From Clostridia bacterium (GTDB lineage Bacteria > Bacillota > Clostridia > TANB77 > UBA1234), in assembly GCA_017539905.1 (NCBI GenBank), contig JAFYBZ010000014.1:184312-248311 (forward strand): 64,000 bases of DNA, written 5' to 3'. Under the pieces are notes generated by a model, which searched no databases, had not been told where the DNA came from, and worked only from the letters and a program-made list of their open reading frames with translations. This document shows positions 12,825-60,782 of the stretch, piece after piece. Each line of letters begins with the position of its first letter. Position 1 is the first letter of the stretch. The position numbers and the translations under genes were made by a program.

Positions 12825-12836
12825 CTTAATTCTCCT

Positions 12837-14002: not shown

Positions 14003-14138
14003 TGTTTTCTCCTTTCGTAACGATATCATGATAACATATTTTATGTACTTTTTCAACGCAAATTACAAAAATTTGCAAAAAAAGTGTATATTTTAAAAAA
14101 TCTTTGCAAAAAGTTGCTTGAAACACAAACTCATGTTC

Positions 14139-27075: not shown

Positions 27076-27160
27076 AATGATTCTCCCTTAAAATAATTTT
27101 GTACATCCAAAAATTATTGTATCATTATCTCAATTTCATTTCAACTTTGCATTCTTTGGT

Positions 27161-27275
27161 GCATTTTTGGGACACATCCAAAAAACCATCTTTTCCTGTC
27201 TTTTGGGAACACGTTCAAAAACCCAAAAAAGTTGGAAAAAAGTAAGTGTCCCCAAAAAGCATCCCCAAAAAGCAC
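27161..27275. repeat. compound REP-like array copy 8: three GGGACA/TGTCCC units plus a CCAAC spacer module
   Basis: gcatttttgggacacatccaaaaaacc...cttttgggaacacgttcaaaaac...gttggaaaaaagtaagtgtccccaaaaagcatccccaaaaagcac. Confidence 0.6.
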
Positions 27276-27364
27276 AATTGACAATATGTAAACTCGTGGT
27301 ATAATTGCCTCAAAAGTAAATCTTGAGATTTCTCTTTTAAATAATTTTCAAAGGAGGCGCTAAA

Positions 27365-27616
27365 ATGGAACGGACTAAAACTTGCCCACATTGCAAACAA
27401 GATGTGACCTACACCGATAAAGACATCATCAAAAAATGTGAGTTTGAAAAACCTGTTCCCTTCTGCCGTATTCTCAATGTTTATTGGGATGTTCTCGTTA
27501 AGTGCCCCAACTGTGGAGAGTCTTTCATTGAAAAAGATATTTACATGAATGACGTGATCTATCACGGAAATGCTCACCACACTCCCAAGCCCCGGGTACC
27601 ATTAACTGAAGACTAA
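27365..27616 (+). CDS. YgiT/MqsA-N-type zinc-finger small protein (family member C)
   Basis: CPHCKQDVTYTDKD...PF...NVY..V..CPNCGESFIEKD. RBS AAAGGAGG. Confidence 0.55.
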   Translation: MERTKTCPHCKQDVTYTDKDIIKKCEFEKPVPFCRILNVYWDVLVKCPNCGESFIEKDIYMNDVIYHGNAHHTPKPRVPLTED

Positions 27617-27620
27617 ATTA

Positions 27621-27662
27621 AAAGATGCTTTTTTGGGACACGTCCAAAAAAGCATCTTTTTT
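27621..27662. repeat. REP-like repeat copy 9 acting as terminator-like hairpin (AAAAGATGCTTTTTTGGGACACGTCCAAAAAAGCATCTTTTTT)
   Basis: 19-bp near-perfect inverted arms plus a T-run. One mismatch from copy 22 at 60737. Confidence 0.65.
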
Positions 27663-32972: not shown

Positions 32973-32986
32973 ACTCTATCTCCAGT

Positions 32987-33054
32987 GTGCTTTTTTGGGA
33001 CACTTACAAAAAGTCACCATTTTATGACTTTTTGTAAGTGTCCCAAAAAGTCAC
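32987..33054. repeat. REPIN-like inverted doublet copy 12: GTGCTTTTTTGGGACACTTACAAAAAGTCAC / GACTTTTTGTAAGTGTCCCAAAAAGTCAC
   Basis: Two REP units in inverted orientation around an 8-nt centre. Overlaps the stop codon of the 33051 gene. Confidence 0.7.
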
Positions 33055-33671
33055 GCGTTTTTCATGAAAGCTGCATCTACATACTCCGCTACATGTTCAA
33101 CAGAGTCAAAGCAATCTTCTAATTTATTATAAATAGCTGTCCACCTAATTACTTCAACAGCATCCGTTTCATTAGTGTACAAATCTCTAAGCGATTCTTG
33201 ATAAAGTTTATCGCCTTGCTCCTCCATTCCATTTAAAGCAACACATATTTTTTGTACCTCATCATAATTTTTCATATCTTTAAATGCAACTAGCAACTCA
33301 CTCATTTTATTCGTAGCAACTTCCATAAGATCAACATACTTTCCAATGTTTGGTCTCATTTCTTTTATTGCCAAAATATCAAAGTCGATCATTACCTCAT
33401 CAATGTTATCTACAACATCATCTAGCCTTCTCGTAAGAGTAATGATATCCTCTCTTTCAATTGGTGGAACAAAATCTTTTATTAAATAATTTAAAATTTT
33501 GTGTTGTGTTTTATCTGCCTCACGCTCTTTTTCATGAACTTTCTTTTCTTGCTCGCGAGATTCATCGTATGTATATGATTCAACAAGTTTTCTAAAAGTT
33601 TTTGAAATATCTATCGCACATTTTGACATGTTTATAAATTCATCATAATAGTTTAATTCTTCTTTTTTCAT
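33051..33671 (-). CDS. DUF47-family (PhoU-like) phosphate transport accessory protein
   Basis: 206 aa helical protein directly downstream of the PiT transporter gene, which is the classic pairing. Confidence 0.7.
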   Translation of the reverse strand: MKKEELNYYDEFINMSKCAIDISKTFRKLVESYTYDESREQEKKVHEKEREADKTQHKILNYLIKDFVPPIEREDIITLTRRLDDVVDNIDEVMIDFDILAIKEMRPNIGKYVDLMEVATNKMSELLVAFKDMKNYDEVQKICVALNGMEEQGDKLYQESLRDLYTNETDAVEVIRWTAIYNKLEDCFDSVEHVAEYVDAAFMKNA

Positions 33672-34736: not shown

Positions 34737-34759
34737 TCGTCTCTCCCACTTTTTTCCTT

Positions 34760-34825
34760 GGAATTTGGGGACACTTACTTTTTTCCAACTTTTTTGGTTT
34801 TTTTGGAAGTGTCCCAAAAAAGCAC
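34760..34825. repeat. REPIN-like element copy 13 (GGGGACACTTAC-TTTTTTCCAACTTTTTTGG-TTTTTTTGGAAGTGTCCCAAAAAAGCAC) in the pit leader
   Basis: Inverted REP arms GGGACACTTAC / GGAAGTGTCCC around a CCAAC spacer. Confidence 0.7.
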
Positions 34826-35114
34826 ATTCATTAACTTCTATTATACCAATCAAAATTTTTCTCTTCAACAAAGCATTTTTTGATGATTTCCTTTATAAGC
34901 ACAACTAATGTATAGTATTATGATTAATTATTTTACATTATGTTAAATTCATAGTATAATAAAATTGTACAAAGGTACAATAAAAATCAACATTTCGGAA
35001 TCAGACACATTCGATTAATCTCATATTACTAAAAAATATGAGTAGAGCATTTGTTAATTGAAATCGTGTATGGTCGCTGAGAAATGTTGTGCAAGAAAGG
35101 AAAGCATTTTTCTA

Positions 35115-35309
35115 ATGAGTATGATCCCCTTCCTCATGGCTAAGGCTGCTTACGATAAGCGGCATGGTAAATCACATAGTGCTGCTGGCGATGCTTTAGA
35201 CAACACCGGAACGGTTATCGCCATGATCTTTATTGCCATTATTCCTCTGTGTATTGTTGGCGGCATTATTGAACTAATCCTTATGCTTTGCGGCGTTATT
35301 ACCCCGTAA
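35115..35309 (+). CDS. small membrane protein (64 aa) at the start of the GC-rich block
   Basis: MSMIPFLMAKAAYDKRHGKSHSAAGDALDNTGTVIAMIFIAIIPLCIVGG. Terminator hairpin at 35323-35352. Confidence 0.35.
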   Translation: MSMIPFLMAKAAYDKRHGKSHSAAGDALDNTGTVIAMIFIAIIPLCIVGGIIELILMLCGVITP

Positions 35310-35361
35310 AGTAGGAAAAAAAGCAAGGTGAGCTCTACACCTTGCCTTTTTTTGTTTGGAC

Positions 35362-35476
35362 TTGAGTTGGCTTTTTGGGACAATTCTATTTTTCCAACTT
35401 TTTTTGCTTTTTTGTAATTGTCCCCAAATTCCAGAAAAAGTTGGAAAAATAGCAGTGTCCCAAAAAGCCAACTCAA
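35362..35476. repeat. MITE-like compound REP element copy 14 with perfect 21-bp terminal inverted repeats (TTGAGTTGGCTTTTTGGGACA ... TGTCCCAAAAAGCCAACTCAA)
   Basis: Terminal inverted repeats at 35362-35382 and 35456-35476. The interior has two more GGGACA/TGTCCCC units and CCAAC/GTTGG modules. Confidence 0.7.
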
Positions 35477-35586
35477 TTCTAAATAATTATGTTTACCTGT
35501 TGAATTTTTCCGTATTTGGTGGTATAATTCTCGCGAAAAATAGATTTTGCACTGGTCTCTCGATTAACTAATAGGGGGTAATTCAA

Positions 35587-36909
35587 ATGAAACTGTCTCG
35601 TTTTTCCAAAATCAAACTTGTTAAGCCCGATGTTTATGCTGTGTTCAATACTCTCATGATGAAGGTGCTTTTCCTTTCGGATGAAGAAAAAACTGCTCTT
35701 GAAAATCTGGATTTTTCACCTGATGACAAGAAAACCTATCTGGAATGCGGAATCATCGTCGATGATGATCAGAAGGATGACCTGGCCCTGGGTAGCGTGA
35801 TGCGTGAATTCGAAGCCATGGAAAAAGAAATCGCGGTCTTGTACCTCATTCTTTCCAGTGGCTGCAATCTCGCCTGCCGCTACTGCTTCATTGAAAACAG
35901 CATGTACAACAACAAGTGCGAACTCAACATGTCGCTTGATGTTGTGGATGCCGCTGTCAATAAGTACTGCGACTATGTGAAGGCCAAGAAAATTGACAAG
36001 CCTCTCATCCTCTTCTACGGCGGTGAACCGCTTCTCAACTGGGCCGCTATCGAGCGGACTATGTCCATCGTAAAATCCAAAGGCGTCTACATGGAATATT
36101 CTATCGTGACGAATGCTACTCTGCTCGATGAAGACAAAGTGAAATTCCTTGCGGAGCACGAAGTCGAAATCGGTATTTCTATCGATGGCCCCAAGGACCT
36201 GAACGACAAGAACCGGATTTATCGCAACTCGTCCAGCAGCGTGTACGACAAGGTGACTGAAAAGATTCAGCTGCTTAAAAAGTACAACGCGAAGTTCGGC
36301 TTGTCGATTACCGTTTCTCAGGATCTTCTGGACCACAAGGCCGAATTCTTCGAGTGGATCAAGCAGTACGGAGTGAAGGACATCTTCTACAACCTGTACC
36401 ATTTCACCGACAAGGCGGAATGGGAAGACTACTACAAGCAGGCGTGCCAATTCTTGTTTGAATCGCATGAGATTCTCTCAGGGCTTGGCATTCACGACGG
36501 AAGGCTTCAGAGAAAACTTGATAGTTTCTTCGATGGGTCTTTCAAATTTGCCGACTGTGCATCTATCGGTGCCAACCAGCTGACCATCAAACCGAATGGC
36601 GATATGTGCGTGTGTCAGGGCTATCACAAATCTGACCAGTATGTTATCGGAAACATTCGTGATGTTGATCTGGAAAAACTTCAGGACACCGATGAATTCT
36701 CTTTCTGGGTAAGTCGTGCACCACTCAAGAATCCCAAGTGTCTCGATTGTGAAGCACTTTTTATCTGCGGTGGTGGTTGTGCGATGCAAGCCGAAGCGCT
36801 TTTTGGAAATCGTGCAGAACTCGATATTCCTTTCTGCCAGCATTCCAAGAGTGCTCTCGAATGGTTGCTTCTTAGGAGCTACGAGTTGGCTCTTGAGGAT
36901 AAAAATTGA
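35587..36909 (+). CDS. radical SAM / SPASM-domain peptide-modifying maturase
   Basis: Cx3Cx2C radical-SAM cluster motif CNLACRYC. GGEPLL. C-terminal SPASM signature CLDCEALFICGGGC (Cx2Cx5Cx3C). About 44 % GC. Confidence 0.85.
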   Translation: MKLSRFSKIKLVKPDVYAVFNTLMMKVLFLSDEEKTALENLDFSPDDKKTYLECGIIVDDDQKDDLALGSVMREFEAMEKEIAVLYLILSSGCNLACRYCFIENSMYNNKCELNMSLDVVDAAVNKYCDYVKAKKIDKPLILFYGGEPLLNWAAIERTMSIVKSKGVYMEYSIVTNATLLDEDKVKFLAEHEVEIGISIDGPKDLNDKNRIYRNSSSSVYDKVTEKIQLLKKYNAKFGLSITVSQDLLDHKAEFFEWIKQYGVKDIFYNLYHFTDKAEWEDYYKQACQFLFESHEILSGLGIHDGRLQRKLDSFFDGSFKFADCASIGANQLTIKPNGDMCVCQGYHKSDQYVIGNIRDVDLEKLQDTDEFSFWVSRAPLKNPKCLDCEALFICGGGCAMQAEALFGNRAELDIPFCQHSKSALEWLLLRSYELALEDKN

Positions 36910-36925
36910 AAGGAGGATTTCGCCC

Positions 36926-37111
36926 ATGCGGAAGCTTGACAAGAAAAAGGTGGCCGTGCAGCTGAATAGCTCCCCCACCGCCGGAATGTCTGTCTGCAAC
37001 TCTTGCGCCAAATGTGGCGGCTGCGGAAGTCGCTGCGTGTCCACTTGCAAGGGATGCCATGACAAGGACGTGAAGGTACAGAGCGTCGAGGAAGTTTACT
37101 CCAGCGAGTAA
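36926..37111 (+). CDS. Cys-rich precursor peptide (61 aa; 7 Cys in 21 residues), probable substrate of the rSAM maturase (ranthipeptide/SCIFF-like)
   Basis: GAAAGGAGG RBS then MRKLDKKKVAVQLNSSPTAGMSVCNSCAKCGGCGSRCVSTCKGCHDKDVKVQSVEEVYSSE. Starts 17 nt after the maturase stop. Confidence 0.6.
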   Translation: MRKLDKKKVAVQLNSSPTAGMSVCNSCAKCGGCGSRCVSTCKGCHDKDVKVQSVEEVYSSE

Positions 37112-37123
37112 AGGGAAAAAGCG

Positions 37124-37148
37124 ATGGCCGGGATTCTTTCCCGGCCAT
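37124..37148 (+). terminator. perfect GC-rich hairpin ATGGCCGGGA-ttctt-TCCCGGCCAT immediately after the precursor gene (partial terminator or attenuator)
   Basis: 10-bp perfect stem. A weak T-tract follows. Confidence 0.45.
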
Positions 37149-37168
37149 TGTATTATGGAGGTAGATTC

Positions 37169-37402
37169 ATGGAGAAAAGTACGATGACTCGCATCTGTCC
37201 AACGTGTAAGCAACTCTTTTACTACACCGAAGACAAAGTCACTCGCACAAAAGTGAATAAATGCTATCCTTTTATGAATCTTGTTCACGTTTACGAAGTC
37301 GAGTATCTTGAGTGTCCTAATTGTAAAACAACTTTCGAACTTCGGCGTGCGTTGATCGAAGCGCAAAAAAATGGCAAGCCACTTCACCCACCGATTCACT
37401 AA
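37169..37402 (+). CDS. YgiT/MqsA-N-type zinc-finger small protein (family member D)
   Basis: GGAGG RBS. CPTCKQLFYYTEDK...YPF..LVHVY..EYLECPNCKTTFELRR. Strongly similar to members B and C. Confidence 0.55.
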   Translation: MEKSTMTRICPTCKQLFYYTEDKVTRTKVNKCYPFMNLVHVYEVEYLECPNCKTTFELRRALIEAQKNGKPLHPPIH

Positions 37403-37423
37403 ATAATTTCTCAACGATTCGCG

Positions 37424-37458
37424 AAAAAAAGACAAGGATTTTTCTCCTTGTCTTTTTT
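37424..37458 (+). terminator. rho-independent terminator GACAAGGA-tttttc-TCCTTGTC followed by TTTTTT
   Basis: Read directly. Confidence 0.5.
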
Positions 37459-37459
37459 A

Positions 37460-37492
37460 GTGCTTTTTTGGGACACTTACAAAAAGTCTCAC
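37460..37492. repeat. REP-like copy 15 (GTGCTTTTTTGGGACACTTACAAAAAGTCTCAC)
   Basis: Identical, apart from one extra G, to copy 16. Direct orientation. Confidence 0.7.
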
Positions 37493-38559
37493 TTCAAAAG
37501 CTTTGCCACTCTCTCCGGAATACTCCTTGGCGCTCTTATAAAACTACATCCATGCTCTTTTAAAAAGCTATATGGATATTCGTTGTTTTTATATTTTTTA
37601 ATCAGCTTTAATTCCATGTCTCTTGCTGAATATATTTTTAAATTTGTTTTTATAATTTCGCATTTATATAAAATTTGTGAATATGGTGCACCAACATAAA
37701 TATAAACAAGATCCCCCACTTTTGCTTCTTTAGGCTGCTTATGCCACACAAAAGTTTTATTATTATCAACGTAACTTACCACATCAAACACATTTATATT
37801 CGACGGAATAATAAACGCACCCGACTTAACTGTCATTTGATAACTATCATCTAAAAGTCTGTATGTATCTTTTAGTTTTGTATTTTTATCGAGAATAATT
37901 GTTATCCAGCTTTCTTTATTCATGTGATAACCAGGAAAAACATTTTGATAATCAATTACCTCTTTTGATTTTTCTTTATCTATATGCAAGTCCAAAACTT
38001 CGATATAATCATCATCCGAAAAATCTTTTATATTTAAAAGTGGATGATCAGAAATCACGCCATCTATTTTCATTCTTTTTAATGTAGATGTGACAAAACT
38101 TTTTTCTCTAACTTTCATGATAACGCCATACCATTTTTTGTTGTCTTGATTTCTAAATACAGCGCCATCGTAATCATCCCACAAAAATTCTAATTCACCA
38201 TCAAATTTTTCTTTTACATATGAAATGATTTTCTTTGCGGATGGCGATTTAAAAGTATCTAAATACGTGCATTTTTCAACGAACTTTTCTAACACTTCTT
38301 CGTATTCTTCTTTAATGCTACCAACAAATTGTCCACTCGATTCTTCAACATCTACGAGAGCATATTCTGATTCATCAAAATTGTCTAGCACTTTTGAAAT
38401 CGCTTTTTTCTTATCGACTTCAATAACAACTTTAAACTCTCCATCTTTTATATCTTTGATGTAAGTATATTTATCTTTATTTTTCTTAAAGCCAAACTTA
38501 GTAAGTTTGGCTTCATCAATTGATCGACTTTTCAAATACGCCTTATACAAATCTCTCAT
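37489..38559 (-). CDS. hypothetical protein with MmcQ/YjbR-like segment (PGYHMNKESW) and C-terminal EVE/PUA-like region
   Basis: 356 aa ORF. AGGAG RBS. The family assignment is weak. Confidence 0.45.
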   Translation of the reverse strand: MRDLYKAYLKSRSIDEAKLTKFGFKKNKDKYTYIKDIKDGEFKVVIEVDKKKAISKVLDNFDESEYALVDVEESSGQFVGSIKEEYEEVLEKFVEKCTYLDTFKSPSAKKIISYVKEKFDGELEFLWDDYDGAVFRNQDNKKWYGVIMKVREKSFVTSTLKRMKIDGVISDHPLLNIKDFSDDDYIEVLDLHIDKEKSKEVIDYQNVFPGYHMNKESWITIILDKNTKLKDTYRLLDDSYQMTVKSGAFIIPSNINVFDVVSYVDNNKTFVWHKQPKEAKVGDLVYIYVGAPYSQILYKCEIIKTNLKIYSARDMELKLIKKYKNNEYPYSFLKEHGCSFIRAPRSIPERVAKLLK

Positions 38560-38600
38560 TTAATTCTCCTATAAATAAAATCTTCCGCTGTTAACGTGTT

Positions 38601-38633
38601 GTGCTTTTTGGGGACACTTACAAAAAGTCTCAC
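38601..38633. repeat. REP-like copy 16 (GTGCTTTTTGGGGACACTTACAAAAAGTCTCAC)
   Basis: Direct repeat of copy 15. Together they bracket the single gene 37489..38559. Confidence 0.7.
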
Positions 38634-39082
38634 TTTATTTTTCTAATAAAATCTTCCAATCCCTCTGGCATATTTTCTTTTGAAATCATAAAGCCTTGAT
38701 TATTTGCAATCATCAAATAAAAATTTGTTTTTGTCTCGATGATTTCGCTTAGTTTTTCATAAGGAACTTTGGCTTCTCCGCCATCGTGTTTTTCATACAA
38801 GTAGTCCTTATAAAACTCATACGAAACATCAACATTTTGCATCAATTTGTTTGAATTAAAAACTCTGTGCACGCCTATCTTTAAGGCTATATAAAACAAG
38901 ATTGGATAAATAATCGCGAAAATAACTAGCACATTATTTTGTAATAAATATCCACTTACAAAAAGACAAATACAAGCAATTATCGAAAGCAAAACTATAT
39001 GTCTCTTTTTAATTAGCGCCCAGTTAAATTTTTTATATTCATCAATTGTAAATTTAGTTGTCGTTTTAAATAAATAATCCAT
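38630..39082 (-). CDS. YcxB-like membrane protein
   Basis: Start at MDYLFKTTTKF after GGAGAA. Two transmembrane helices then a PH-like domain. The track's N-terminus is repeat translation. Confidence 0.5.
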   Translation of the reverse strand: MDYLFKTTTKFTIDEYKKFNWALIKKRHIVLLSIIACICLFVSGYLLQNNVLVIFAIIYPILFYIALKIGVHRVFNSNKLMQNVDVSYEFYKDYLYEKHDGGEAKVPYEKLSEIIETKTNFYLMIANNQGFMISKENMPEGLEDFIRKIK

Positions 39083-39094
39083 CTTTTCTCCTTC

Positions 39095-39161
39095 TGCTTT
39101 TTGGGGACACTTACTTTTTTCCAACTTTTTCGGGTTTTTTGGACGTGTCCCAAAAAATCAC
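39095..39161. repeat. REPIN-like element copy 17 (..GGGGACACTTAC-TTTTTTCCAACTTTTTCGGG-TTTTTTGGACGTGTCCCAAAAAATCAC)
   Basis: Lies between the exonuclease stop and the RBS of the 39082 gene. Confidence 0.7.
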
Positions 39162-39745
39162 TTAAATAATTTTTTGAATTCATCAAAGCTATCATATTCA
39201 CTGCAAATTGATTTGCACATTTTCTTATAGACCTTGTTAGTTAAATCGCAATCATTTAGCGCTCTATGTTTGTTACGCACCTTTATTCCATAGTAATCCG
39301 TTAAATCATCTAATTTATGATGATCCAAATCCTTGATGTGTTTTCTTGCAATTTTTAAAGTGTCAACAAAATCATTTGTCAAAGGTTCATCTAAAACCTC
39401 TTCGAAATTATCATACAAAAAATTTACATCAAAATTTACGTTGTGACCAAGTATAATATCGTCTTCTAAAAAATCCCTGAAATCATACAAAACATCTTCG
39501 AGCTCATCGCCCTCATCCTCAACCATCCTTGTAGTAATTCCTGTTAGATTACTTATAAAATACGGAATCCTTTCGTGCGGATTAATAAGTCTCGAAAATG
39601 TGTCAATTTCTTTTCCATCTCTAACCTTAATTGCACTTATTTCAATTATTTTATTATAACTTGGGCTCATGCCTGTTGTTTCAATATCAAGCACCGTATA
39701 ATCCTTAAGCTTTTCCACGATGCTTTTGCCTTTCAAATCTCTCAT
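39158..39745 (-). CDS. DnaQ-like DEDDh 3'-5' exonuclease
   Basis: Exo I LDIETTG, Exo II HNVNFD, Exo III HRALNDC. Start at MRDLKGK after AAGGAAA. The alternative start is 39763. Confidence 0.75.
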   Translation of the reverse strand: MRDLKGKSIVEKLKDYTVLDIETTGMSPSYNKIIEISAIKVRDGKEIDTFSRLINPHERIPYFISNLTGITTRMVEDEGDELEDVLYDFRDFLEDDIILGHNVNFDVNFLYDNFEEVLDEPLTNDFVDTLKIARKHIKDLDHHKLDDLTDYYGIKVRNKHRALNDCDLTNKVYKKMCKSICSEYDSFDEFKKLFK

Positions 39746-39763
39746 TTTTATTTCCTTTTCCAT

Positions 39764-40777
39764 CTAGTTATTATCAAAGTATTCACTAATTTTCTGTTCA
39801 AACTTATTTTTACTTCCAATTCCTTTGATACTATTTACTTTTTTATCAATTACGCAGAACAATTCTCCATTTGAGTTAATTGATCCTAATAAGCTTGGGA
39901 AAGCAGTTAGCATTATAAGTAGAAAACAAACTAAAAAAACTGTCATGCAAACTATAATAAGATATTTTGATAAATCCAAATTAAATCTTGCTACAAACAT
40001 GCTTAAAATCAATATAACTGGCGCAAGTATTAGTCCAAGAGCAATGAGGAAAAAAGTTGCATCTTTTACCTTTAAGTTTGCGCCACTTACATTCCCATTT
40101 ACATCATTAATATAATAAGTGTATGGTTTTCCATTTTGCTCAGCAGTAACAATCCAAACTGGATAATAATATCTATTAGTCTCTGTTACCTCATAATCAA
40201 TTCTTGATTTATAGCTTCTTCCATCCCCACTTAGTTGGTTACTAGTAAACACGATTTTTTGAATTGAATCTAAAATCGCTTTATCTCCTTTTCGATGTGC
40301 TTTTTCTTTTTCACTTAATTCAATACTACTTGTGTAGATACTATCTGCTACAGAGCTACACTCTACTACTCCATCGTTATCAACAAAATCTAAAAATTCA
40401 CAATCAGAATAATTTGAATAATCAATCATTGGCTTATAGCTTTTATCTGTAAATGGAGCTATCACTTTAAATTGATTTATATCAATATCTTTGTGATTTG
40501 CACAAAGCATTAAACTAAATTTTGATTCAGTATCTGCTTCATAATAAGCTGGAACCGGGCCGTTTTTTCCTCCATTAAGCATTTTCTCATAAAACGAATT
40601 TGCTTTGGATTCAATGATGTATTTATAGAATGGAACATATACTTTTTTTGCACTTGTCATTTTTATATCACGTGCATTTAGCGCCCATCCATTATGACAG
40701 ATAAATCTTTTAGCTTTTTTCTTTGCCCATCTTTCAGTATGTGCAAATTTTATTATTCCATCAACATTTTGCATCAT
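39764..40777 (-). CDS. membrane protein with C-terminal transmembrane helices, translationally coupled to the exonuclease
   Basis: 337 aa. Its stop abuts the exonuclease ORF. Confidence 0.5.
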   Translation of the reverse strand: MMQNVDGIIKFAHTERWAKKKAKRFICHNGWALNARDIKMTSAKKVYVPFYKYIIESKANSFYEKMLNGGKNGPVPAYYEADTESKFSLMLCANHKDIDINQFKVIAPFTDKSYKPMIDYSNYSDCEFLDFVDNDGVVECSSVADSIYTSSIELSEKEKAHRKGDKAILDSIQKIVFTSNQLSGDGRSYKSRIDYEVTETNRYYYPVWIVTAEQNGKPYTYYINDVNGNVSGANLKVKDATFFLIALGLILAPVILILSMFVARFNLDLSKYLIIVCMTVFLVCFLLIMLTAFPSLLGSINSNGELFCVIDKKVNSIKGIGSKNKFEQKISEYFDNN

Positions 40778-40830
40778 TTTCCCCCTTAATTTCGCTACTT
40801 ATTTTATCATTTTTTTGCCTATTTTTCAAT

Positions 40831-40869
40831 AAAAAAAGCTTTTTTGGAACACGTCCAAAAAAGCATCAC
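40831..40869. repeat. REP-like copy 18 (AAAAAAAGCTTTTTTGGAACACGTCCAAAAAAGCATCAC)
   Basis: Read directly. Confidence 0.6.
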
Positions 40870-41339
40870 ACACAAATTTCAGCTAGTTGAAATTCAATCA
40901 CTTTCTTCAAATCTTCTAAACTCACTTCAACTTGATATCCGATCTTTCCTGCGCTAAAAATTATTGTATCAAAATTTGAAGCAGAACTATCAATTGTTGT
41001 TTTAAAAAACTTCTTCATTCCGATTGGTGAACATCCGCCGTGAATATATCCCGTTAACATGAGCAAATCTTTTTGCTTTAACATCTCTATGTTTTTTTCT
41101 CCAACAGCTTTCGCAGCCTTTTTTAAATCAAGTTCCTCTGCAACAGGAATCACAAATACATAGTGTTCTCTTGAATGACCAGTCGTAACCAAAGTTTTAA
41201 AAACTTGCGCCTCATTTTGATCTAGCACCTTCGCAACCTCCACTCCCGAGATAGCATCCGTACTTGCATAACTATATGATTTATATTCAATTTTATTCGC
41301 ATCCAAAATACGCATCACGTTCGTTTTTTCTTGTTTCAT
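40866..41339 (-). CDS. ybaK: YbaK/Cys-tRNA(Pro) deacylase-like protein
   Basis: MKQEKTNVMRILD...HGGCSPIGMKK. The start is uncertain because of a weak RBS. The track start lies inside a repeat. Confidence 0.6.
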   Translation of the reverse strand: MKQEKTNVMRILDANKIEYKSYSYASTDAISGVEVAKVLDQNEAQVFKTLVTTGHSREHYVFVIPVAEELDLKKAAKAVGEKNIEMLKQKDLLMLTGYIHGGCSPIGMKKFFKTTIDSSASNFDTIIFSAGKIGYQVEVSLEDLKKVIEFQLAEICV

Positions 41340-41372
41340 CCTAAACTTCACCGCCATCATTATACCACAAAG

Positions 41373-41478
41373 TGCTTTTTTGGGACACGTCCATTTTTCC
41401 AACTATTTCTGGAATTTTGGGACACTTCCATTTTTCCAACTTTTTCTGGTTTTTTGTATGTGTCCCAAAAATCCAACC
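41373..41478. repeat. compound REP array copy 19, 3' flank of the RAYT gene
   Basis: gtgcttttttgggacacgtccatttttccaactatttctgg aattttgggacacttccatttttccaactttttctgg ttttttgtatgtgtcccaaaaatccaacc. Two direct units plus one inverted. Confidence 0.7.
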
Positions 41479-41483
41479 CAAAA

Positions 41484-42248
41484 TTACAATTTCACTTTAT
41501 AATTCTCATCAAGTATTGCTTTAGAAACACTAAGCCAATTGATAATATCTTTTTGTTTCAATTTGCATTCTTGATTCAAATATACAATCAATTTTTGCAA
41601 TACTGCTCGAACGCTAAAGATTTCAATCAAAGAATGATTATACTCCGCGATAAAACTTCTAACGCCATCTTCAAAGTACTCATGACTAATCTTTGTCGAA
41701 TCAAGATCCATAAACACTCTGTCATAAGCTTCGTCTATCGCTTTCAAATAATTCACATTTTCTCCGAACACTTCTTTCAAAATCTCACACTTTGCACAAC
41801 CTTGTCCACGCAAATAATCTTGATACGATGAGTACGAATAAGCCTCACAACAGGTTGCTATTCCTGCCTTTACAGGATTGTTGTGAATATACTTTATGCA
41901 ATTTACTAAATGCGACATTTCATAAATCGGTTCCAATTGATATCTATTTCTAAATACAACTCCTACTCTATCTTCGCTTTTATTATAAAAGTTAGCAAAA
42001 TTTTGATTCACTGATTTCATAAATTGTCCAAAGCATTCGATATCTTTCACATAGAATAAAAAATGTGCGTGATTATTCATCATGCAATAAGCAAGCAAAT
42101 CAAATTCTTTGTAGTGTGATTCACTCTTTATACTCTTTAAATAATAATTTAGATTTTTGGGATTATCAAAAACATATTCTTTATTTACACCTTGAACCAT
42201 AACATGAATGAATGGTGTATTAATTTTTTTGCGTGCAACACGTGACAT
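41484..42248 (-). CDS. HUH-Y1 transposase-like protein, REP-associated tyrosine transposase (RAYT/TnpA-REP)-like
   Basis: HUH motif MMNNHAHFLFYV and Tyr motif YIHNNPVKAGI, as in IS200/RAYT Y1 enzymes. GGAGG RBS. Flanked on both sides by compound repeat arrays. Confidence 0.7.
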   Translation of the reverse strand: MSRVARKKINTPFIHVMVQGVNKEYVFDNPKNLNYYLKSIKSESHYKEFDLLAYCMMNNHAHFLFYVKDIECFGQFMKSVNQNFANFYNKSEDRVGVVFRNRYQLEPIYEMSHLVNCIKYIHNNPVKAGIATCCEAYSYSSYQDYLRGQGCAKCEILKEVFGENVNYLKAIDEAYDRVFMDLDSTKISHEYFEDGVRSFIAEYNHSLIEIFSVRAVLQKLIVYLNQECKLKQKDIINWLSVSKAILDENYKVKL

Positions 42249-42364
42249 TAGAAATCCTCCTTATATGCAAAAAGGGAGTTAGATTCATACTCAATCTAAC
42301 CCCCACACTTATTTTACAGCTTCATATTACCATTATCTATAAAAATTGCAATACCTTTTTACTT

Positions 42365-42469
42365 GGAATTTTGGGACAGGTCCAAAATTCCAACTTTTCT
42401 TGGATTTTTGTAAGTGTCCCAAAATCCCAACTTTTTCTGGATTTTTGTAAGTGTCCCCAAAAGTCACAC
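42365..42469. repeat. compound REP array copy 20, 5' flank of the RAYT gene
   Basis: ggaattttgggacaggtccaaaattccaacttttcttgg atttttgtaagtgtcccaaaatcccaactttttctgg atttttgtaagtgtccccaaaagtcacac. Confidence 0.7.
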
Positions 42470-42730
42470 TTTATCGCCCATGGCAAGAAGATCATTCATG
42501 GTCAAACTGCCCCACATTCTTTCCATAAGCCGCACAGCATCATACGTAATCACGCCATACTTGAAATAGTGAATCACAATGTAGCCATCATGCGCACCCA
42601 TCGTTGTGCCGATGAGTTTATCATCCAGATATACATTGTATTCCAGATAACTTCCATCACTGAGCTGCGTCCGACTCACCAGCAAATTCTGCTGATCGTC
42701 TTTGTTTTTCGAACCAAACTTTAGAACCAC
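42464..42730 (-). CDS. small hypothetical protein (88 aa), GC-rich
   Basis: Last gene of the 44924-42464 operon. Its stop overlaps the repeat. Confidence 0.4.
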   Translation of the reverse strand: MVLKFGSKNKDDQQNLLVSRTQLSDGSYLEYNVYLDDKLIGTTMGAHDGYIVIHYFKYGVITYDAVRLMERMWGSLTMNDLLAMGDKV

Positions 42731-42756
42731 CAGCTGTCACTCCCTTACGATGTTTT

Positions 42757-43848
42757 CTATCTATTATTCTTTTGCTTCGGAATTTCGGGAAGCTGTCGTC
42801 CAACAATATTAATGTCTTTAAGCAGTTCCGGATCTTTGCTCATCATAATACTTCCATGCCCACGCAAATTCAAAACATAAGCAACTCGTTCAAAATTTCC
42901 GTTATAGAATTTTTTCACAGCACGCTCGATTTCATCGACTTCTTCAATTGCTCCGCACGGCACTATCCTATCCGTAAACAACGCATTTTTAATATAGCAA
43001 TGCGAATGAATCATAAAGTTGATATTCGGAAACATCTTATAAAGTCGGACCTGAATCGGCGTATCGACCGATGGCTTATTTTCACCGATGTAATAAATTT
43101 TTCCATCCTTCATATAAACCGGCACAAAATCCTGCGCGCTAATGAATTCTTTATTCACATTTCTTCGACTTACAAAAATCAAATCGCCTTGCCTAAAAGA
43201 AGGAAATCCTTTTGGACATCTGAACGATGCATTGCCCAAAAATCTTTTAACATCTTTTGTCTGGAAAATTGCCTCAGCAAAAACATTTGCATAGTTTCGA
43301 ACAATGCCCAAAAAATCTTCATTAAAAGTATCGTCACTCAAATTTAAATCTTCAAGTTTGATATCAGAAGAAATTGTCGGCTCACGAGTAATCGTAGATA
43401 AAAATTCAAGTCGCTTTTGCATCTTTTCTGCGCAACTAATGATGCTCGCCCCATCGTACCAAAGATTTCCGAGCGGATCAAAAAGTCTCATGTTGAAAAC
43501 TTTACCCTTCTCACTAAACTCAATTGTGAGGTTCGCCTTCGCTTCAAGCGACCGCTGAAGTAATTCTTCAAAAGTATATTCACCATTATTTCTTTTCGAT
43601 GTAACAAGCAATGCCTTATAATTTATCTCTTTGACATTTCTAACCTTCGGCATATCATTCGGCACATTTGCCCACCAAAGAACAACATCAAAATAAATAC
43701 TCGTTTCAATTATCCGATGCAAATCAAAATAGTATCCACCGTTATAAACCGTGACATACGAAAACTCTCTCGCAAATTTTTCAACTACTCTTGATTTCTT
43801 TCCACCTTGAAAATCCCATGTTCCGCCAACAAGAAGAATGCTGTTCAT
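42757..43848 (-). CDS. two-domain protein with C-terminal class II aldolase/adducin-like domain
   Basis: MIHSHCY...NLRGHGSIMM carries the HSH and GHG zinc-ligand motifs. N-terminal domain unknown. Confidence 0.55.
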   Translation of the reverse strand: MNSILLVGGTWDFQGGKKSRVVEKFAREFSYVTVYNGGYYFDLHRIIETSIYFDVVLWWANVPNDMPKVRNVKEINYKALLVTSKRNNGEYTFEELLQRSLEAKANLTIEFSEKGKVFNMRLFDPLGNLWYDGASIISCAEKMQKRLEFLSTITREPTISSDIKLEDLNLSDDTFNEDFLGIVRNYANVFAEAIFQTKDVKRFLGNASFRCPKGFPSFRQGDLIFVSRRNVNKEFISAQDFVPVYMKDGKIYYIGENKPSVDTPIQVRLYKMFPNINFMIHSHCYIKNALFTDRIVPCGAIEEVDEIERAVKKFYNGNFERVAYVLNLRGHGSIMMSKDPELLKDINIVGRQLPEIPKQKNNR

Positions 43849-43865
43849 TTTAACTCCCCCTTTTA

Positions 43866-44924
43866 TTACGGCTTAAAGTCAAAATCAAAATAAGTATAGT
43901 AGCCTCCTTTTGGCAAAGCTAAATAATCCTCAATCTTTTGATTTGCAAGATAATCAAGATTTGAAATTCGAGTAATGCCATTGTAATAGAATGCGAGCGG
44001 ATTAACATACCGAGTTTTTACGGATGTATTAATGCAATAAACTCCTTCAACAGGACAATCGCTTCGATACACCTTATCCGCCTTTTGAAATTTTCGAAAA
44101 CTCTCTTCCAAATACGGATCACCGCAATGCAAGATTTTTTCGATCACTTCTTTTTCTGATAGAGTATATAAATCATCAATTAATAAATATCCACGCTGAT
44201 TCATCGCCTTGCACATATCCGCAATAAACTGCATAACTGTTCTATCTTTGTCACTTACCCATTCCGGCCAAATCTTTGCAGCAAAATGAATATACTCCGC
44301 ACAAATTTCTTTGTGCCTAAAAGTAAACTCATCAAGTCCGTCTTCATTTTTCGCAATCGTAATATCATTATAAACTCTTCGAATAGTATCTAAATCCCAA
44401 ATTCTAAAAAAAGAAAGCCCACTTGAAAAAGTATATTCGAATCTGTCTGCCGAAAGCCGCGGTGTCTCATTATCCGCCAAAGGATAAATTTTATAGTCCT
44501 TCACTTCTTCAAGCTTAATTCCGTCACGTTTTAAAAGCGTCATTATTTCTATGGAATTCTTTATAAAATCTGTCGTTTTTTCTTCGGTCGATTCCTGCGT
44601 TAAAGAATCGCCATTCATAAAATCAATGCAATGCTTAAAAACCGGTGTCGCAATATCATGGAAAAGTCCGGCCAAAGTCTGCTTTTTGTCATGCGTAAAA
44701 TGCCACAAAATGAGTGCAACACCCACACTATGCTCAAGATTAGAATACCAATACCGAATGTTATAACACCCAGAGTAATCCGTTCCGCAACTGATACTGA
44801 TTTTACCTATGCGCTGCATCTCCGGTGTGTTGATATATTCCATCATCCATTCCGGGAACTCAGGCGACAAAATCCGAAAATATTCACGAATTTCCTCGTT
44901 CAAACTTTGTAAGTACGAATTCAT
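43866..44924 (-). CDS. HD-domain phosphohydrolase
   Basis: HSVGVALILWHF...AGLFHDIATPVFKH. Start at MNSYLQSL after AAAGGAGG. Confidence 0.65.
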   Translation of the reverse strand: MNSYLQSLNEEIREYFRILSPEFPEWMMEYINTPEMQRIGKISISCGTDYSGCYNIRYWYSNLEHSVGVALILWHFTHDKKQTLAGLFHDIATPVFKHCIDFMNGDSLTQESTEEKTTDFIKNSIEIMTLLKRDGIKLEEVKDYKIYPLADNETPRLSADRFEYTFSSGLSFFRIWDLDTIRRVYNDITIAKNEDGLDEFTFRHKEICAEYIHFAAKIWPEWVSDKDRTVMQFIADMCKAMNQRGYLLIDDLYTLSEKEVIEKILHCGDPYLEESFRKFQKADKVYRSDCPVEGVYCINTSVKTRYVNPLAFYYNGITRISNLDYLANQKIEDYLALPKGGYYTYFDFDFKP

Positions 44925-45033
44925 CTTATTCCTGCCTCCTTTATTAATTGAAAAGGATTTTCTCAAATAATCCACTTTGCGAGAGCATAATACCACGGAT
45001 TTGCCGATTTTTCAACCGATTTTGTGGTTTTAG

Positions 45034-45111
45034 GGCGGGTGCTTTTTGGGGACACTGCTAAAAAACCAGGAAATCCTGGTTTTTTAGCAGTGTCCCCAAA
45101 AAGCACCCGCC
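45034..45111. repeat. perfect 78-bp palindromic REPIN copy 21 (38-bp arms GGCGGGTGCTTTTTGGGGACACTGCTAAAAAACCAGGA with a 2-nt centre)
   Basis: Both arms are identical as reverse complements, suggesting recent duplication or mobilisation. Confidence 0.75.
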
Positions 45112-45221
45112 TCAAAAAAGCACCCCCTGTAACACAAACTTAACATTGTAATACCGCTAAAACAATTGTCGCAGCTGGCCAAATATAATATCATTGTTAG
45201 TATAGAAAGGAGCGGACAATC

Positions 45222-60532: not shown

Positions 60533-60733
60533 ATGGACCAAAAAATGGATTATGTATTATTACATGAAGATATGCTTGATTTATACAAAGCATTAAACGG
60601 ACTTCAAGAAAAAGTAAAAAAGTATATTTCTTTTGGATACGTTCCTCAGGGTGGCGTTTCTATTTGTGCTGTTGGCGATAATAACTACCATCATTATTCT
60701 GCTGCTCAGGCCATGGTTAGAGTAAATAAATAA
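60533..60733 (+). CDS. small hypothetical protein (66 aa)
   Basis: AAGGAGG RBS. Followed by a REP-type terminator. Confidence 0.4.
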   Translation: MDQKMDYVLLHEDMLDLYKALNGLQEKVKKYISFGYVPQGGVSICAVGDNNYHHYSAAQAMVRVNK

Positions 60734-60736
60734 AAT

Positions 60737-60782
60737 AAAGATGCTTTTTTGGGACACCTCCAAAAAAGCATCTTTTTTTTCT
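60737..60782. repeat. REP-like copy 22 (AAAGATGCTTTTTTGGGACACCTCCAAAAAAGCATCTTTTTTTTC), terminator-like
   Basis: One mismatch from copy 9 at 27621, about 33 kb away. Confidence 0.65.

What the first reader, a model, noticed from the sequence alone, without database searches (positions are those of the whole stretch)
35362..45111. Each transcription unit in the 35-45 kb segment is delimited by a repeat copy: a REP-bounded cassette-like array of heterogeneous GC
The order is: REP(35362-35476), the rSAM block, REP(37460), one gene, REP(38601), one gene, REPIN(39095), exonuclease plus membrane gene, REP(40831), ybaK, REP array, RAYT, REP array, the HD/aldolase/small-gene operon, then the perfect REPIN at 45034. 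The modules differ markedly in GC (about 28 % to 45 %) and in function, as expected for independently acquired cargo. Copies 15 and 16 are direct, near-identical 33-bp repeats bracketing a single gene. The layout resembles integron cassette arrays or pdif modules, but the boundary elements are REP-like palindromes. REPs may therefore serve as recombination or mobilisation boundaries for gene cassettes here. I am not aware of this having been described.
Basis: inference. Interest (0 to 1): 0.75.

Follow-up and report, generated by a model that had tools for sequence, protein, structure and literature searches.

The report
REP repeats crowding around their transposase
The repeats that separate every gene block here are ordinary REP/REPIN elements that have spread into the spacers around their own RAYT transposase gene in an uncultured rumen Clostridia bacterium, and comparison with related strains shows the repeats changing while the genes stay put, so this is not a new REP-bounded gene-cassette system.

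Summary
A hairpin repeat with the core TTTTGGGACAC occurs 27 times in the window, always between genes. It fills all 10 spacers of at least 60 nt between 32.7 and 45.4 kb, against 6 of 27 elsewhere. At the centre lies a RAYT gene (41484-42248, minus strand) flanked by inverted REP arrays, which is a REPtron.

The cassette interpretation fails its tests.
- Strains 96.5-98.9% identical, from other studies, keep the gene order. The variation sits in the REPs: one REPIN doublet is replaced by a single REP.
- In the nearest other species, YcxB and YjbR abut with no REP, so the REP between them here is a plain insertion.
- A 2.4-kb three-gene indel has no REP at its edges.
- The high-GC rSAM/precursor module occurs in REP-free genomes, and its homology ends are not at REPs.
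- The exonuclease ORF sits in eight different contexts. REPs next to it are absent or differ in position and orientation.
- The window encodes no integrase.

Gene order is scrambled between species, and several breakpoints fall in REP-bearing spacers. Because every spacer here carries a REP, that coincidence is uninformative. REP-REP recombination remains a minor possibility.

Verdict: a new member of a known kind, of modest interest.

The parts
41484..42248 (-). RAYT (REP-associated tyrosine transposase, Y1/HUH), 254 aa, with a C-terminal helical extension of about 100 aa
   Evidence: Pfam Y1_Tnp 7e-6. NCBIfam REP_Tyr_transpos 7e-17, 61.6 bits, below the 80-bit cut-off. H60, H62 (HUH) and Y120 are invariant in 35 homologues. 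AF2 model pLDDT 82.7. Best PDB fold hit is 4ER8, E. coli TnpA_REP on a REP hairpin, E = 5e-5. JGI names homologues RayT.
41364..41484 (.). REP array (+,+,-) directly downstream of the RAYT stop, between ybaK and the RAYT
   Evidence: Conserved with 4 substitutions in strain L093.
42355..42475 (.). REP array (+,-,-) upstream of the RAYT. With the previous array it forms the inverted flanks of a REPtron.
45028..45117 (.). Near-perfect REPIN (44-nt arms, 95% complementary) in the divergent spacer between the HD operon and the 583-aa gene
   Evidence: I5. ssDNA fold -50.5 kcal/mol, z = -14.8.
40829..40869 (+). Solitary REP (core TTGGAACAC) between the ybaK stop and the promoter of the membrane-protein/exonuclease pair. 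On the minus strand it reads as a hairpin plus T-run terminator.
   Evidence: (z = -7.6). An orthologous REP lies upstream of the membrane gene in L036.
39086..39169 (.). REPIN doublet between the exonuclease stop and the YcxB start
   Evidence: The exonuclease-proximal half has a counterpart in L036/L040.
38593..38633 (+). Solitary REP ('copy 16') inserted between YcxB and YjbR. It supplies the YcxB stop codon.
   Evidence: Absent in L036, where the two genes overlap at TAATG.
37452..37492 (+). Solitary REP ('copy 15') between the convergent Zn-ribbon and YjbR genes. It overlaps the YjbR stop codon.
35352..35486 (.). 135-nt palindromic REP structure with three cores. It lies between the terminator of the 83-aa gene and the rSAM promoter.
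   Evidence: I1; -44.1 kcal/mol, z = -12.6
34750..34833 (.). REPIN doublet upstream of PHO4. In strains L090/L091 it is replaced by one solitary REP.
32979..33062 (.). REPIN doublet between the flotillin and PhoU_div genes (same family, outside the stated range)
27151..27657 (.). Further copies of the same family: an array at 27151-27270 and a solitary REP at 27617-27657 after the HD194 gene
60733..60773 (+). Most distant solitary REP of the family in the window. Others are at about 17125, 19942 and 21325.
35587..37112 (+). Foreign RiPP-type module: rSAM/SPASM peptide maturase (35587-36909) plus a 61-aa Cys-rich precursor (36927-37112). GC is 46-56%.
   Evidence: The unit 35561-37111 is shared with REP-free loci L080-L083.
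37489..39082 (-). YcxB (38630-39082) and YjbR (37489-38559): a conserved gene pair, not two cassettes
39158..40774 (-). Membrane protein (39764-40774, orphan family) plus DEDDh exonuclease (39158-39745)
40866..41360 (-). YbaK/ProX-type aminoacyl-tRNA editing domain gene
42464..44924 (-). Operon of an HD-like protein, a class II aldolase-domain protein and an 88-aa protein. GC is moderately raised.
   Evidence: Collinear in strain L093.

Best explanation
This is a REPtron, with its REP/REPIN progeny saturating the neighbouring spacers of a variable accessory region of the chromosome.

The window comes from an uncultured rumen Clostridia bacterium. A type 1 BREX system and a GmrSD gene lie at 1-14 kb, and FtsH lies at 57 kb.

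Proposed mechanism. The RAYT is an HUH/Y1 single-strand DNA endonuclease. It is inferred to bind the folded REP hairpin, in which the conserved GGG-ACAC forms the top of the stem and the loop. It would then copy REPs or REPINs in trans into extragenic DNA, preferentially nearby. This would explain why 20 of 27 copies lie within 9 kb of the gene.

Insertions survive only where they do no harm. That means just after stop codons or terminators and ahead of the next promoter. Once a neighbourhood is saturated, every transcription unit looks 'delimited'. Some copies probably double as terminators.

The genes between the repeats are ordinary accessory genes, plus one horizontally acquired RiPP module. 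They came and went by processes that do not depend on the REPs.

Shown here: the repeat family, its extragenic placement, its clustering around the RAYT, the RAYT fold and motifs, REP turnover between strains with fixed gene order, and REP-independent indels.

Inferred: RAYT-catalysed copying, local preference, and terminator use.
For: Repeat family and placement.

RAYT identity.

The same architecture occurs around RAYT homologues of about 50% identity in unrelated contexts. Their REPs keep the GGGACAC core and lie in inverted orientation on the two sides (L032, L033).

Strain level:
- Same-strain contigs from at least 6 samples are 99.9-100% identical.
- L089 (98.4%), L090/L091 (96.5%) and L093 (98.9%) are collinear with the window.
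- In L091, 25 of 38 substitutions and the only indel in this stretch fall within 34700-34899, where a REPIN is swapped for a solitary REP.

Species level:
- There is a clean REP insertion inside the YcxB-YjbR pair.
- A three-gene indel has no REP at its edges.
- The rSAM module boundaries are not at REPs, and its relatives are REP-free.
- The relatives L003 and L004 have no REPs in the 17-19 kb held for each, yet different PHO4 neighbours.

REP 40838-40864 scores as an intrinsic terminator and is followed by a promoter-like site.

Literature: REPtrons and local amplification of BIMEs (PMC3333891); REPINs almost always flank RAYTs (PMC5581495); Group 1 RAYTs occur in Clostridia (PMC5581495).
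Against: Between the window and L036/L040, four of six broken adjacencies have a REP at the junction in both genomes. The two gene orders are circular permutations of each other, which REP-REP exchange could produce.

All eight solitary REPs share one orientation (p = 0.008). This superficially resembles an attC array.

Only 64 kb of the genome was available. Genome-wide REP density and RAYT copy number are therefore unknown, and 'local preference' rests on this window plus L033.

The RAYT scores below the NCBIfam equivalog cut-off. RAYT activity has not been tested for this family.
Confidence: 0.8

Rival explanations
1. REPs act as recombination hot spots. The exchange could be host homologous recombination between similar REP copies, or RAYT strand transfer at REPs. 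It would excise, duplicate or translocate the DNA between two REPs, so REPs really are the joints at which modules get shuffled between species. They would not be a dedicated cassette system.
For: A complete REP sits just after the exonuclease stop in both the window and L036/L040, but the next gene differs: YcxB versus HD194. A REP in the same orientation sits upstream of the membrane gene in both, with different upstream neighbours. REPs follow YjbR in both. The window order mem337-exo|YcxB-YjbR is a circular permutation of the L036 order YcxB-YjbR...mem336...exo. Precedent: the F'128 plasmid formed by recombination between chromosomal REPs (Kofoid 2003, cited in PMC1428787). TnpA_REP catalyses cleavage and recombination in vitro (PMC3333891).
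Against: Every spacer in this zone has a REP, so coincidence with breakpoints is guaranteed. The mem337|exo breakpoint and the 2.4-kb indel are REP-free. REP-free relatives are just as rearranged. Orthologous REPs are different subtypes, so no exchange point can be traced. No rearrangement was seen among strains at 96.5-100% identity. In E. coli amplification junctions, REPs were not preferentially used (PMC1428787).
Confidence: 0.13
2. Genes flanked by two REPs are cassettes mobilised by the RAYT, by analogy with IS200/IS605 'peel and paste' between two hairpins in the same orientation. The array would be a RAYT-based counterpart of an integron or pdif array.
For: There is a series of same-orientation solitary REPs at 37467, 38608, 40843 and 41379, with single genes between them. 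Copies 15 and 16 match at 34 of 35 positions and bracket YjbR. In L043 the exonuclease gene is bracketed by REPs on both sides, in another context. The RAYT is related to IS608-type TnpA.
Against: Homology between contexts stops at the ORF ends and does not include the REPs. The REP position and orientation next to the exonuclease gene differ, or the REP is absent, in 5 of 8 contexts. YjbR is half of a conserved, translationally coupled pair. The rSAM module lies in REP-free DNA elsewhere. No module presence/absence was seen among strains. Solitary REPs far from the array have the same orientation, so the bias is genome-wide rather than array-specific.
Confidence: 0.04
3. The repeats are primarily functional punctuation, such as intrinsic terminators or mRNA 3'-end stabilisers. 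They would be selected at the end of each transcription unit, and their link to the RAYT would be secondary.
For: Several copies are stable hairpins flanked by T-runs. REP 40838-40864 and the REP at 42363-42393 pass the terminator scan. Most lie immediately after stop codons. Roles in termination and mRNA stability are known for REPs (PMC3733652).
Against: Many copies are weak hairpins (z = -0.9 to -1.1 for copies 15 and 16). Others lie upstream of genes or in divergent spacers (34750-34833, 45028-45117). Separate conventional terminators exist next to REPs at 35323-35345 and 37425-37458. Density falls with distance from the RAYT rather than tracking operon ends. This explains retention, not origin, and is compatible with the best explanation.
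Confidence: 0.03

Closest known systems
E. coli REPtron (tnpA_REP/yafM flanked by REP/BIME; PMC3333891, PMC8266576; PDB 4ER8)
   Same: It has a single Y1/HUH gene flanked on both sides by variable numbers of REPs in inverted orientation. The REPs are imperfect palindromes with a conserved short motif. The locus is stable between strains while REP numbers and types vary. The best structural match of the RAYT model is 4ER8.
   Different: The conserved motif is GGGACAC, at the top of the stem and in the loop, rather than GTAG 5' of the stem. The stems are AT-rich. The protein has an extra C-terminal helical domain of about 100 aa and only about 16% identity to the E. coli protein. REPs also fill about 10 consecutive neighbouring spacers. 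The host is a Clostridia bacterium.
REPIN-RAYT systems of Pseudomonas and Enterobacteria (PMC3116915, PMC5581495)
   Same: There are REP doublets in inverted orientation (REPINs) of about 85-135 nt. They are extragenic, flank the RAYT, and evolve as a within-genome population whose subtype differs between related genomes.
   Different: The published view is that only Group 2 and 3 RAYTs are REPIN-associated, and that Group 1 is the group found in Clostridia. The group of this RAYT was not determined here. Copy number is known only for 64 kb.
IS200/IS605 family (IS608, ISDra2)
   Same: They share the HUH/Y1 fold and recognition of subterminal hairpins on single-stranded DNA. The orientation bias of copies could reflect lagging-strand targeting.
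   Different: There is no sign that the RAYT moves with its flanks: the locus is the same in strains at 98.9% identity. There is no TnpB. The hairpins are dispersed on their own.
Integron cassette arrays and pdif modules
   Same: There is a superficial resemblance: small units of mixed function separated by a recurring, structured DNA site that folds as a hairpin.
   Different: No integrase or Xer gene is in the window. The sites occur as singlets, doublets or triplets in both orientations and on either side of genes. Units have their own promoters and include an opposite-strand block. Strains show no cassette presence/absence.
REP-mediated rearrangements in enterobacteria (F'128 formation, Kofoid 2003, cited in PMC1428787)
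   Same: Similar short palindromes at many spacers could serve as substrates for occasional ectopic recombination. This would fit the circular permutation seen against L036.
   Different: No exchange point can be demonstrated here, and REP-free breakpoints also exist.

Membership tests
RAYT/REP system (REPtron) | Y1 transposase fold with an HUH motif and a single catalytic tyrosine | tested here: met
   H60-A-H62 and Y120 (KYIHNNPV) are invariant in 35 homologues. Pfam Y1_Tnp is above its cut-off. The AF2 model's best PDB hit is 4ER8, followed by IS608 and ISDra2 TnpA.
RAYT/REP system (REPtron) | Score above the curated NCBIfam equivalog cut-off (REP_Tyr_transpos) | tested here: not met
   61.6 bits against a cut-off of 80 (E = 7e-17). 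phmmer against PDB sequences finds nothing. It is therefore a distant subfamily, recognisable by fold and motifs.
RAYT/REP system (REPtron) | Gene flanked on both sides by copies of the repeat in inverted orientation | tested here: met
   Arrays at 41364-41484 and 42355-42475. In RAYT orientation they read [+ + -] gene [+ - -]. Homologues L032 and L033 show the same arrangement.
RAYT/REP system (REPtron) | The flanking repeat is a short imperfect palindrome, over-represented and extragenic | tested here: met
   23 matches against 0.39 expected. All 27 of 27 cores are intergenic. Hairpin z-scores reach -7 to -15 for several copies. Genome-wide abundance was not available.
RAYT/REP system (REPtron) | Single-copy, vertically inherited RAYT at a fixed locus within the species | tested here: inconclusive
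   There is one copy in the 64 kb, and the locus is the same in strain L093 at 98.9% identity. Homologues of 50-63% identity sit in unrelated contexts. The whole genome was not available.
RAYT/REP system (REPtron) | RAYT binds and cleaves single-stranded REP DNA | not testable with these tools
   This needs a biochemical assay.
Integron | IntI tyrosine recombinase and attI next to the array | tested here: not met
   Pfam scans of the 65 ORFs examined found no Phage_integrase or recombinase family.
Integron | One attC at the 3' end of each cassette, all in one orientation; cassettes mostly promoterless and co-oriented | tested here: not met
   The sites are singlets, doublets or triplets in both orientations. 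Some are 5' of genes or in divergent spacers. The rSAM block is on the opposite strand and has its own promoter-like site.
Integron / pdif modules | Presence/absence or reshuffling of whole site-to-site modules between close strains | tested here: not met
   At least 10 contigs of the same strain and four contigs at 96.5-98.9% identity are collinear. Only the REPs differ.
pdif modules | 28-bp XerC/XerD binding sites in alternating orientation flanking each module | not tested
   No Xer-site model was run. The recurring element is a RAYT-type hairpin with a GGGACAC core, and no Xer gene is in the window.
IS200/IS605 insertion sequence carrying passenger genes | The unit (hairpin ends plus cargo) recurs as a whole at other loci | tested here: not met
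   Homology between contexts is confined to the ORFs. For the exonuclease gene this holds in 8 contexts, and for the rSAM pair. The flanking REPs are not shared.

The most novel reading that the evidence does not exclude
In this lineage of rumen Clostridia the REPs would be more than passengers. Because they occupy almost every spacer of the accessory region around the RAYT, REP-REP exchange (RecA- or RAYT-mediated) would excise and reinsert REP-to-REP segments. Single genes such as the exonuclease would then be shuffled between contexts. The window and L036 orders would be circular permutations produced through a REP-joined circle or a tandem duplication. This would be a hairpin/HUH-based functional analogue of an integron.
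Probability: 0.1. Interest if true: 0.75.

Novelty: new member of a known kind. Interest (0 to 1): 0.3.

Why it matters
REP/RAYT systems have been studied almost entirely in Proteobacteria. Here is a clear REPtron in an uncultured rumen Clostridia lineage. It has true REPIN doublets and a different conserved core (GGGACAC), which is kept across RAYTs that are only about 50% identical. Density is strongly local. This extends the known range of such systems and gives a natural case for asking whether RAYTs act preferentially in cis or nearby.

It also has a practical side. These repeats break short-read metagenome assemblies exactly at the spacers, and they mimic cassette arrays. Annotators of MAGs should recognise the pattern. 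It does not establish a new gene-mobilisation mechanism.

Tried and rejected
- **Same-strain contigs** (L001, L002, L037-39, L085-88) were 99.9-100% identical, so they gave no variation to analyse.
- **The genome scan with PHO4** found relatives of 83% identity or less. Their PHO4 neighbours differ and they contain no REPs, so they serve only as a REP-free control.
- **RAYT homologue contexts** share no neighbours with the window, so RAYT synteny could not be used.
- **phmmer of the RAYT against PDB sequences** found nothing. A fold search was needed instead.
- **Rfam at a permissive threshold** gave only sub-threshold eukaryotic miRNA-hairpin hits on the long palindromes. These are artefacts of hairpin shape.
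- **One literature search** on REPs and synteny breakpoints returned only eukaryotic papers.
- **Assembly chimerism at repeats** was considered and rejected. The window order is reproduced in at least 10 contigs from several samples and assemblers, and the L036 order is reproduced in L040.
- **A minus-strand ORF in the rSAM block** (36872-37435) had been called as a gene in one assembly. It has no family hit, and the plus-strand reading (Cys-rich precursor plus Zn-ribbon) is conserved in relatives.
- **Integron and pdif membership** was rejected, as set out in the membership table.

Full report
**The observation**

A repeat with the core TTTTGGGACAC is highly over-represented. The pattern TTTGGGGACAC with up to one mismatch occurs 23 times, against 0.39 expected. 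A slightly wider pattern finds 27 cores, all between genes.

An alignment of 26 copies gives the consensus TGCTTTTTTGGGACACTTCCAAAAAnCCAAC, with TTT-GG-ACA invariant.

Folded as single-stranded DNA, several solitary copies form stable hairpins:
- 27617-27657: -14.2 kcal/mol, z = -7.8
- 40829-40869: z = -7.6
- 60733-60773: z = -7.1

The doublets form long palindromes: 45025-45120 at -50.5 kcal/mol (z = -14.8) and 35352-35486 at -44.1 kcal/mol (z = -12.6). Copies '15' and '16' are weak hairpins (z about -1).

Between 32.7 and 45.4 kb, all 10 spacers of at least 60 nt carry one to three copies. Elsewhere 6 of 27 do (Fisher p = 2e-5). Twenty of the 27 copies lie within 9 kb of the RAYT gene.

Several spacers (38560-38629, 39083-39157, 40775-40865) consist of little more than the repeat itself.

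**The genes**

- an rSAM/SPASM peptide maturase, closest to the FibroRumin and PapB RiPP maturases
- a YjbR-domain protein and a YcxB-domain protein
- an RNase_T (DEDDh) exonuclease
- an orphan protein with two C-terminal transmembrane segments
- a YbaK/tRNA_edit protein
- a Y1_Tnp protein
- an operon of an Aldolase_II-domain protein, a weak-HD protein and an 88-aa protein.

Just downstream of the rSAM gene lies a 61-aa Cys-rich ORF (36927-37112) with a good ribosome-binding site. It is the likely precursor peptide.

Per-gene composition shows two atypical blocks. The first is the rSAM block (GC 42-56%, GC3 47-57%). The second is the 88-aa gene (44%) with the aldolase and HD genes (37%). YjbR, YcxB, the exonuclease, the membrane protein and the RAYT are host-like (28-32%, against a window mean of 31%). 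The GC claim is therefore half right.

The rest of the window holds a type 1 BREX system (BrxA, BrxB, BrxC, PglX, PglZ) and a GmrSD gene at 1-14 kb. It also holds assorted accessory genes, together with FtsH and an aminotransferase. No integrase or Xer recombinase was found.

The organism is an uncultured rumen Clostridia bacterium.

**The transposase**

The 254-aa protein at 41484-42248(-) matches Pfam Y1_Tnp. It matches NCBIfam 'REP-associated tyrosine transposase' at E = 7e-17, but below the curated cut-off.

Hundreds of homologues exist in uncultured Clostridia, and JGI names some of them RayT.

H60-A-H62 and Y120 (in KYIHNNPV) are invariant in an alignment of 35 homologues. An AlphaFold model (pLDDT 82.7) has as its best PDB match 4ER8, the E. 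coli TnpA_REP bound to a REP hairpin (E = 5e-5, TM 0.63 over the target). The IS608 and ISDra2 transposases follow.

The gene is flanked by REP arrays in inverted orientation. The region 41364-42475 is thus a REPtron in the sense of PMC3333891.

RAYT homologues of only about 50% identity, in quite different gene contexts (L032, L033-35), are flanked in the same way by REPs that keep the GGGACAC core. In L033 REPs also occupy several neighbouring spacers, while the adjacent nusA-infB-rbfA-truB operon has none.

**Test 1: strains**

At least ten contigs of the same strain, from several samples and assemblers, are 99.9-100% identical to the window.

Four contigs from other studies are more divergent and still collinear:
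- L093 is 98.9% identical over ybaK-RAYT-88aa-aldolase-HD. Both REP arrays are retained.
- L089 is 98.4% identical.
- L090 and L091 are 96.5% identical over PhoU-PHO4-83aa-REP array(-rSAM).

In L090 and L091, the REPIN doublet at 34757-34826 is replaced by one solitary REP of another subtype and orientation. In L091, 25 of the 38 substitutions and the only indel fall in that 200-nt stretch.

So genes are fixed and REPs turn over. The stated refutation criterion is met at this depth of divergence.

**Test 2: the nearest other species**

L036 (confirmed by the independent assembly L040) shares five of the genes at 75-86% nucleotide identity, but in a different order:

YcxB-YjbR | GT2, a 222-aa gene, GH3, DUF1015 | membrane gene | NADase_transloc, an 86-aa gene, ADP-ribosylglycohydrolase | exonuclease-HD194.

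It has its own REP subtype (ACTTTTGGGGACACGAACCAAAAGGGACA) in many spacers. Three points argue against REP-bounded cassettes.

- YcxB and YjbR overlap at TAATG in L036, with no REP. The window carries a roughly 65-nt insertion there, containing 'copy 16', which also replaces the last YcxB codons. The gene 'bracketed by copies 15 and 16' is therefore half of a conserved pair.
- The 2.4-kb three-gene segment between the membrane gene and the exonuclease in L036 is absent from the window. Its breakpoints are at the stop codon of the membrane gene and 25 nt upstream of the exonuclease ATG. No REP is at either edge in either genome.
- Where both genomes have a REP at the same junction, each has its own subtype. 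This holds after the exonuclease, upstream of the membrane gene, and after YjbR and HD194. After YjbR the proximal copies are in opposite orientation. The REPs were therefore not inherited or moved together with the gene.

**Test 3: the same genes elsewhere**

The exonuclease ORF occurs at 79-91% amino-acid identity in seven further metagenome contexts. Homology is confined to the ORF plus about 25 nt upstream. The only exceptions are one shared upstream neighbour (L042 and L044) and a 400-nt stretch further upstream shared by L044 and L045.

Downstream of the stop codon the contexts differ:
- The window and L036/L040 have a REP immediately after the stop.
- L043 has a REP in the opposite orientation, 8 nt away, and another upstream.
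- L044 has a REP-like hairpin without the core.
- L045 has an ordinary terminator.
- L042, L046 and L047 have nothing adjacent.

The rSAM plus precursor pair occurs at 77% and 68% nucleotide identity in L080/L081 and L082/L083. The shared unit is window 35561-37111. It starts 82 nt to the right of the REP structure and ends about 340 nt before the next REP. It excludes the 83-aa and Zn-ribbon genes, and those loci contain no REPs.

PHO4-PhoU relatives at 83% identity (L003, L004) have different neighbours from the window and from each other. They have no REPs in the 17-19 kb held for each. Gene-order scrambling in this group therefore does not need REPs.

**What remains in favour of a REP role**

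Of six adjacencies broken between the window and L036/L040, four have a REP at the junction in both genomes. The two orders are circular permutations of each other. REP-REP recombination followed by reinsertion, or tandem duplication followed by loss, could produce this. REP-REP recombination forming F'128 is a precedent (cited in PMC1428787). TnpA_REP recombines REP substrates in vitro (PMC3333891).

However, every spacer in this zone carries a REP, so coincidence with breakpoints has no discriminating power. I keep this as a minority rival (about 0.13). The full cassette-mobilisation model is lower, at about 0.04.

All eight solitary REPs in the window point the same way (p = 0.008). This includes copies 14-25 kb from the array, so the bias is a property of the genome or of the replication or transcription direction. 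It is not a property of a cassette array.

**Mechanism proposed**

Shown: the repeat family, its extragenic placement and clustering around the RAYT, the RAYT fold and motifs, REP turnover with fixed gene order, and REP-independent gene flux.

Inferred from the IS200/IS605 and TnpA_REP literature (PMC3333891, PMC8266576): the RAYT binds the folded single-stranded REP, in which GGG-ACAC forms the top of the stem and the loop. It cleaves nearby and copies REPs or REPINs in trans into other extragenic sites, preferentially close by. Only insertions between a stop codon or terminator and the next promoter persist, so a saturated neighbourhood looks punctuated.

Some copies may serve as terminators. 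REP 40838-40864 passes the terminator scan and is followed by a promoter-like site, TTGAAA-17-TAAAAT. Conventional terminators also sit next to REPs at 35323-35345 and 37425-37458. A separate hairpin plus T-run (42274-42304) lies between the upstream array and the RAYT start.

**Comparison and novelty**

The anatomy is that of a REPtron with REP/REPIN progeny (PMC3333891, PMC3116915). Group 1 RAYTs are reported in Clostridia (PMC5581495).

New here are the host lineage, the GGGACAC-type REP conserved across distant RAYTs, the C-terminal extension of the protein, and the unusually dense local colonisation. I rate it a new member of a known kind, with interest about 0.3.

The integron/pdif resemblance is superficial. 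There is no recombinase, the site orientation and multiplicity are mixed, the units have their own promoters, and strains show no cassette polymorphism.

Noticed in passing
window 35587-37112 (with 35071-35309 and 37170-37402): This is a likely RiPP module: an rSAM/SPASM maturase (best NCBIfam match FibroRumin/PapB type) followed by a 61-aa Cys-rich precursor (MRKLDKKK...CNSCAKCGGCGSRCVSTCKGCHDKD...). GC is 46-56% in a 31% genome. The pair is conserved in L081 and L082, also with 61-aa ORFs. One assembly's gene caller instead called a spurious 187-aa ORF on the opposite strand.
   Followed up: partly
window 39158-39745; loci L036, L040, L042-L047: The DEDDh exonuclease ORF is conserved at 79-91% amino-acid identity in eight different gene contexts, and homology ends at the ORF boundaries. 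That is unusual for a gene of this kind. It suggests the gene lives in a hypervariable region in all these genomes.
   Followed up: partly
window 1207-14056: A complete type 1 BREX system (BrxA, BrxB, BrxC, PglX/Eco57I-type methylase, PglZ) lies here, followed by a GmrSD type IV restriction gene. The left third of the window is a defence island with no REPs.
   Followed up: partly
window 17125, 19942, 21325, 27632, 37467, 38608, 40843, 60748: All eight solitary REPs are in the '+' orientation (binomial p = 0.008), while nearly all genes are on the '-' strand and GC skew is negative. This may reflect strand-specific (lagging-strand template) insertion, as in IS608, or selection relative to transcription.
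   Followed up: no
ends of L002, L038, L086, L088, L090, L091 (window 45063, 39101, 39124, 35447, 35441, 35402): Short-read contigs of this organism repeatedly end inside REP or REPIN copies. The repeats fragment metagenome assemblies, which also explains why most RAYT homologues sit on contigs of 1-4 kb.
   Followed up: partly
L032 795-2421; L033 7984-18986; L036; L042; L043; L078: The GGGACAC core is kept in the REPs next to RAYT homologues that are only 45-63% identical, while stems and tails differ per genome. It behaves like the GTAG/CGTC 'tags' described for proteobacterial REPs.
   Followed up: partly
L036 8258-10657 (= L040 3856-6256): A three-gene insert sits between the membrane gene and the exonuclease in the related species. 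It comprises a NADase_transloc-domain protein, an 86-aa ORF on the opposite strand, and an ADP-ribosylglycohydrolase. It looks like a toxin/antidote or defence pair, and two REPs lie inside it rather than at its ends.
   Followed up: no
window 37489-37494 and 38630-38635: The stop codons of both YjbR and YcxB lie inside the shared tail (GTCTCACTT) of REP copies 15 and 16. The REP insertion rewrote the last codons of YcxB relative to L036.
   Followed up: yes
window 41484-41800 (RAYT residues about 150-254) and 42274-42304: The RAYT family here carries a conserved helical C-terminal domain of about 100 aa that the 165-aa E. coli enzyme lacks. A strong hairpin plus T-run lies between the upstream REP array and the RAYT start. 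It may insulate the gene from read-through.
   Followed up: no
window 31214-32788 and 27290-27580: The flotillin/SPFH gene (GC 45.7%) and a small ORF (GC 37.5%, GC3 43%) are also compositional outliers outside the reported range. Each has a REP or REPIN next to it.
   Followed up: no
window 32975-33065, 35360-35478, 45027-45119: Permissive Rfam scans report sub-threshold matches to plant and animal miRNA precursor models exactly on the long REP palindromes. This is a hairpin-shape artefact that could mislead automated annotation.
   Followed up: yes
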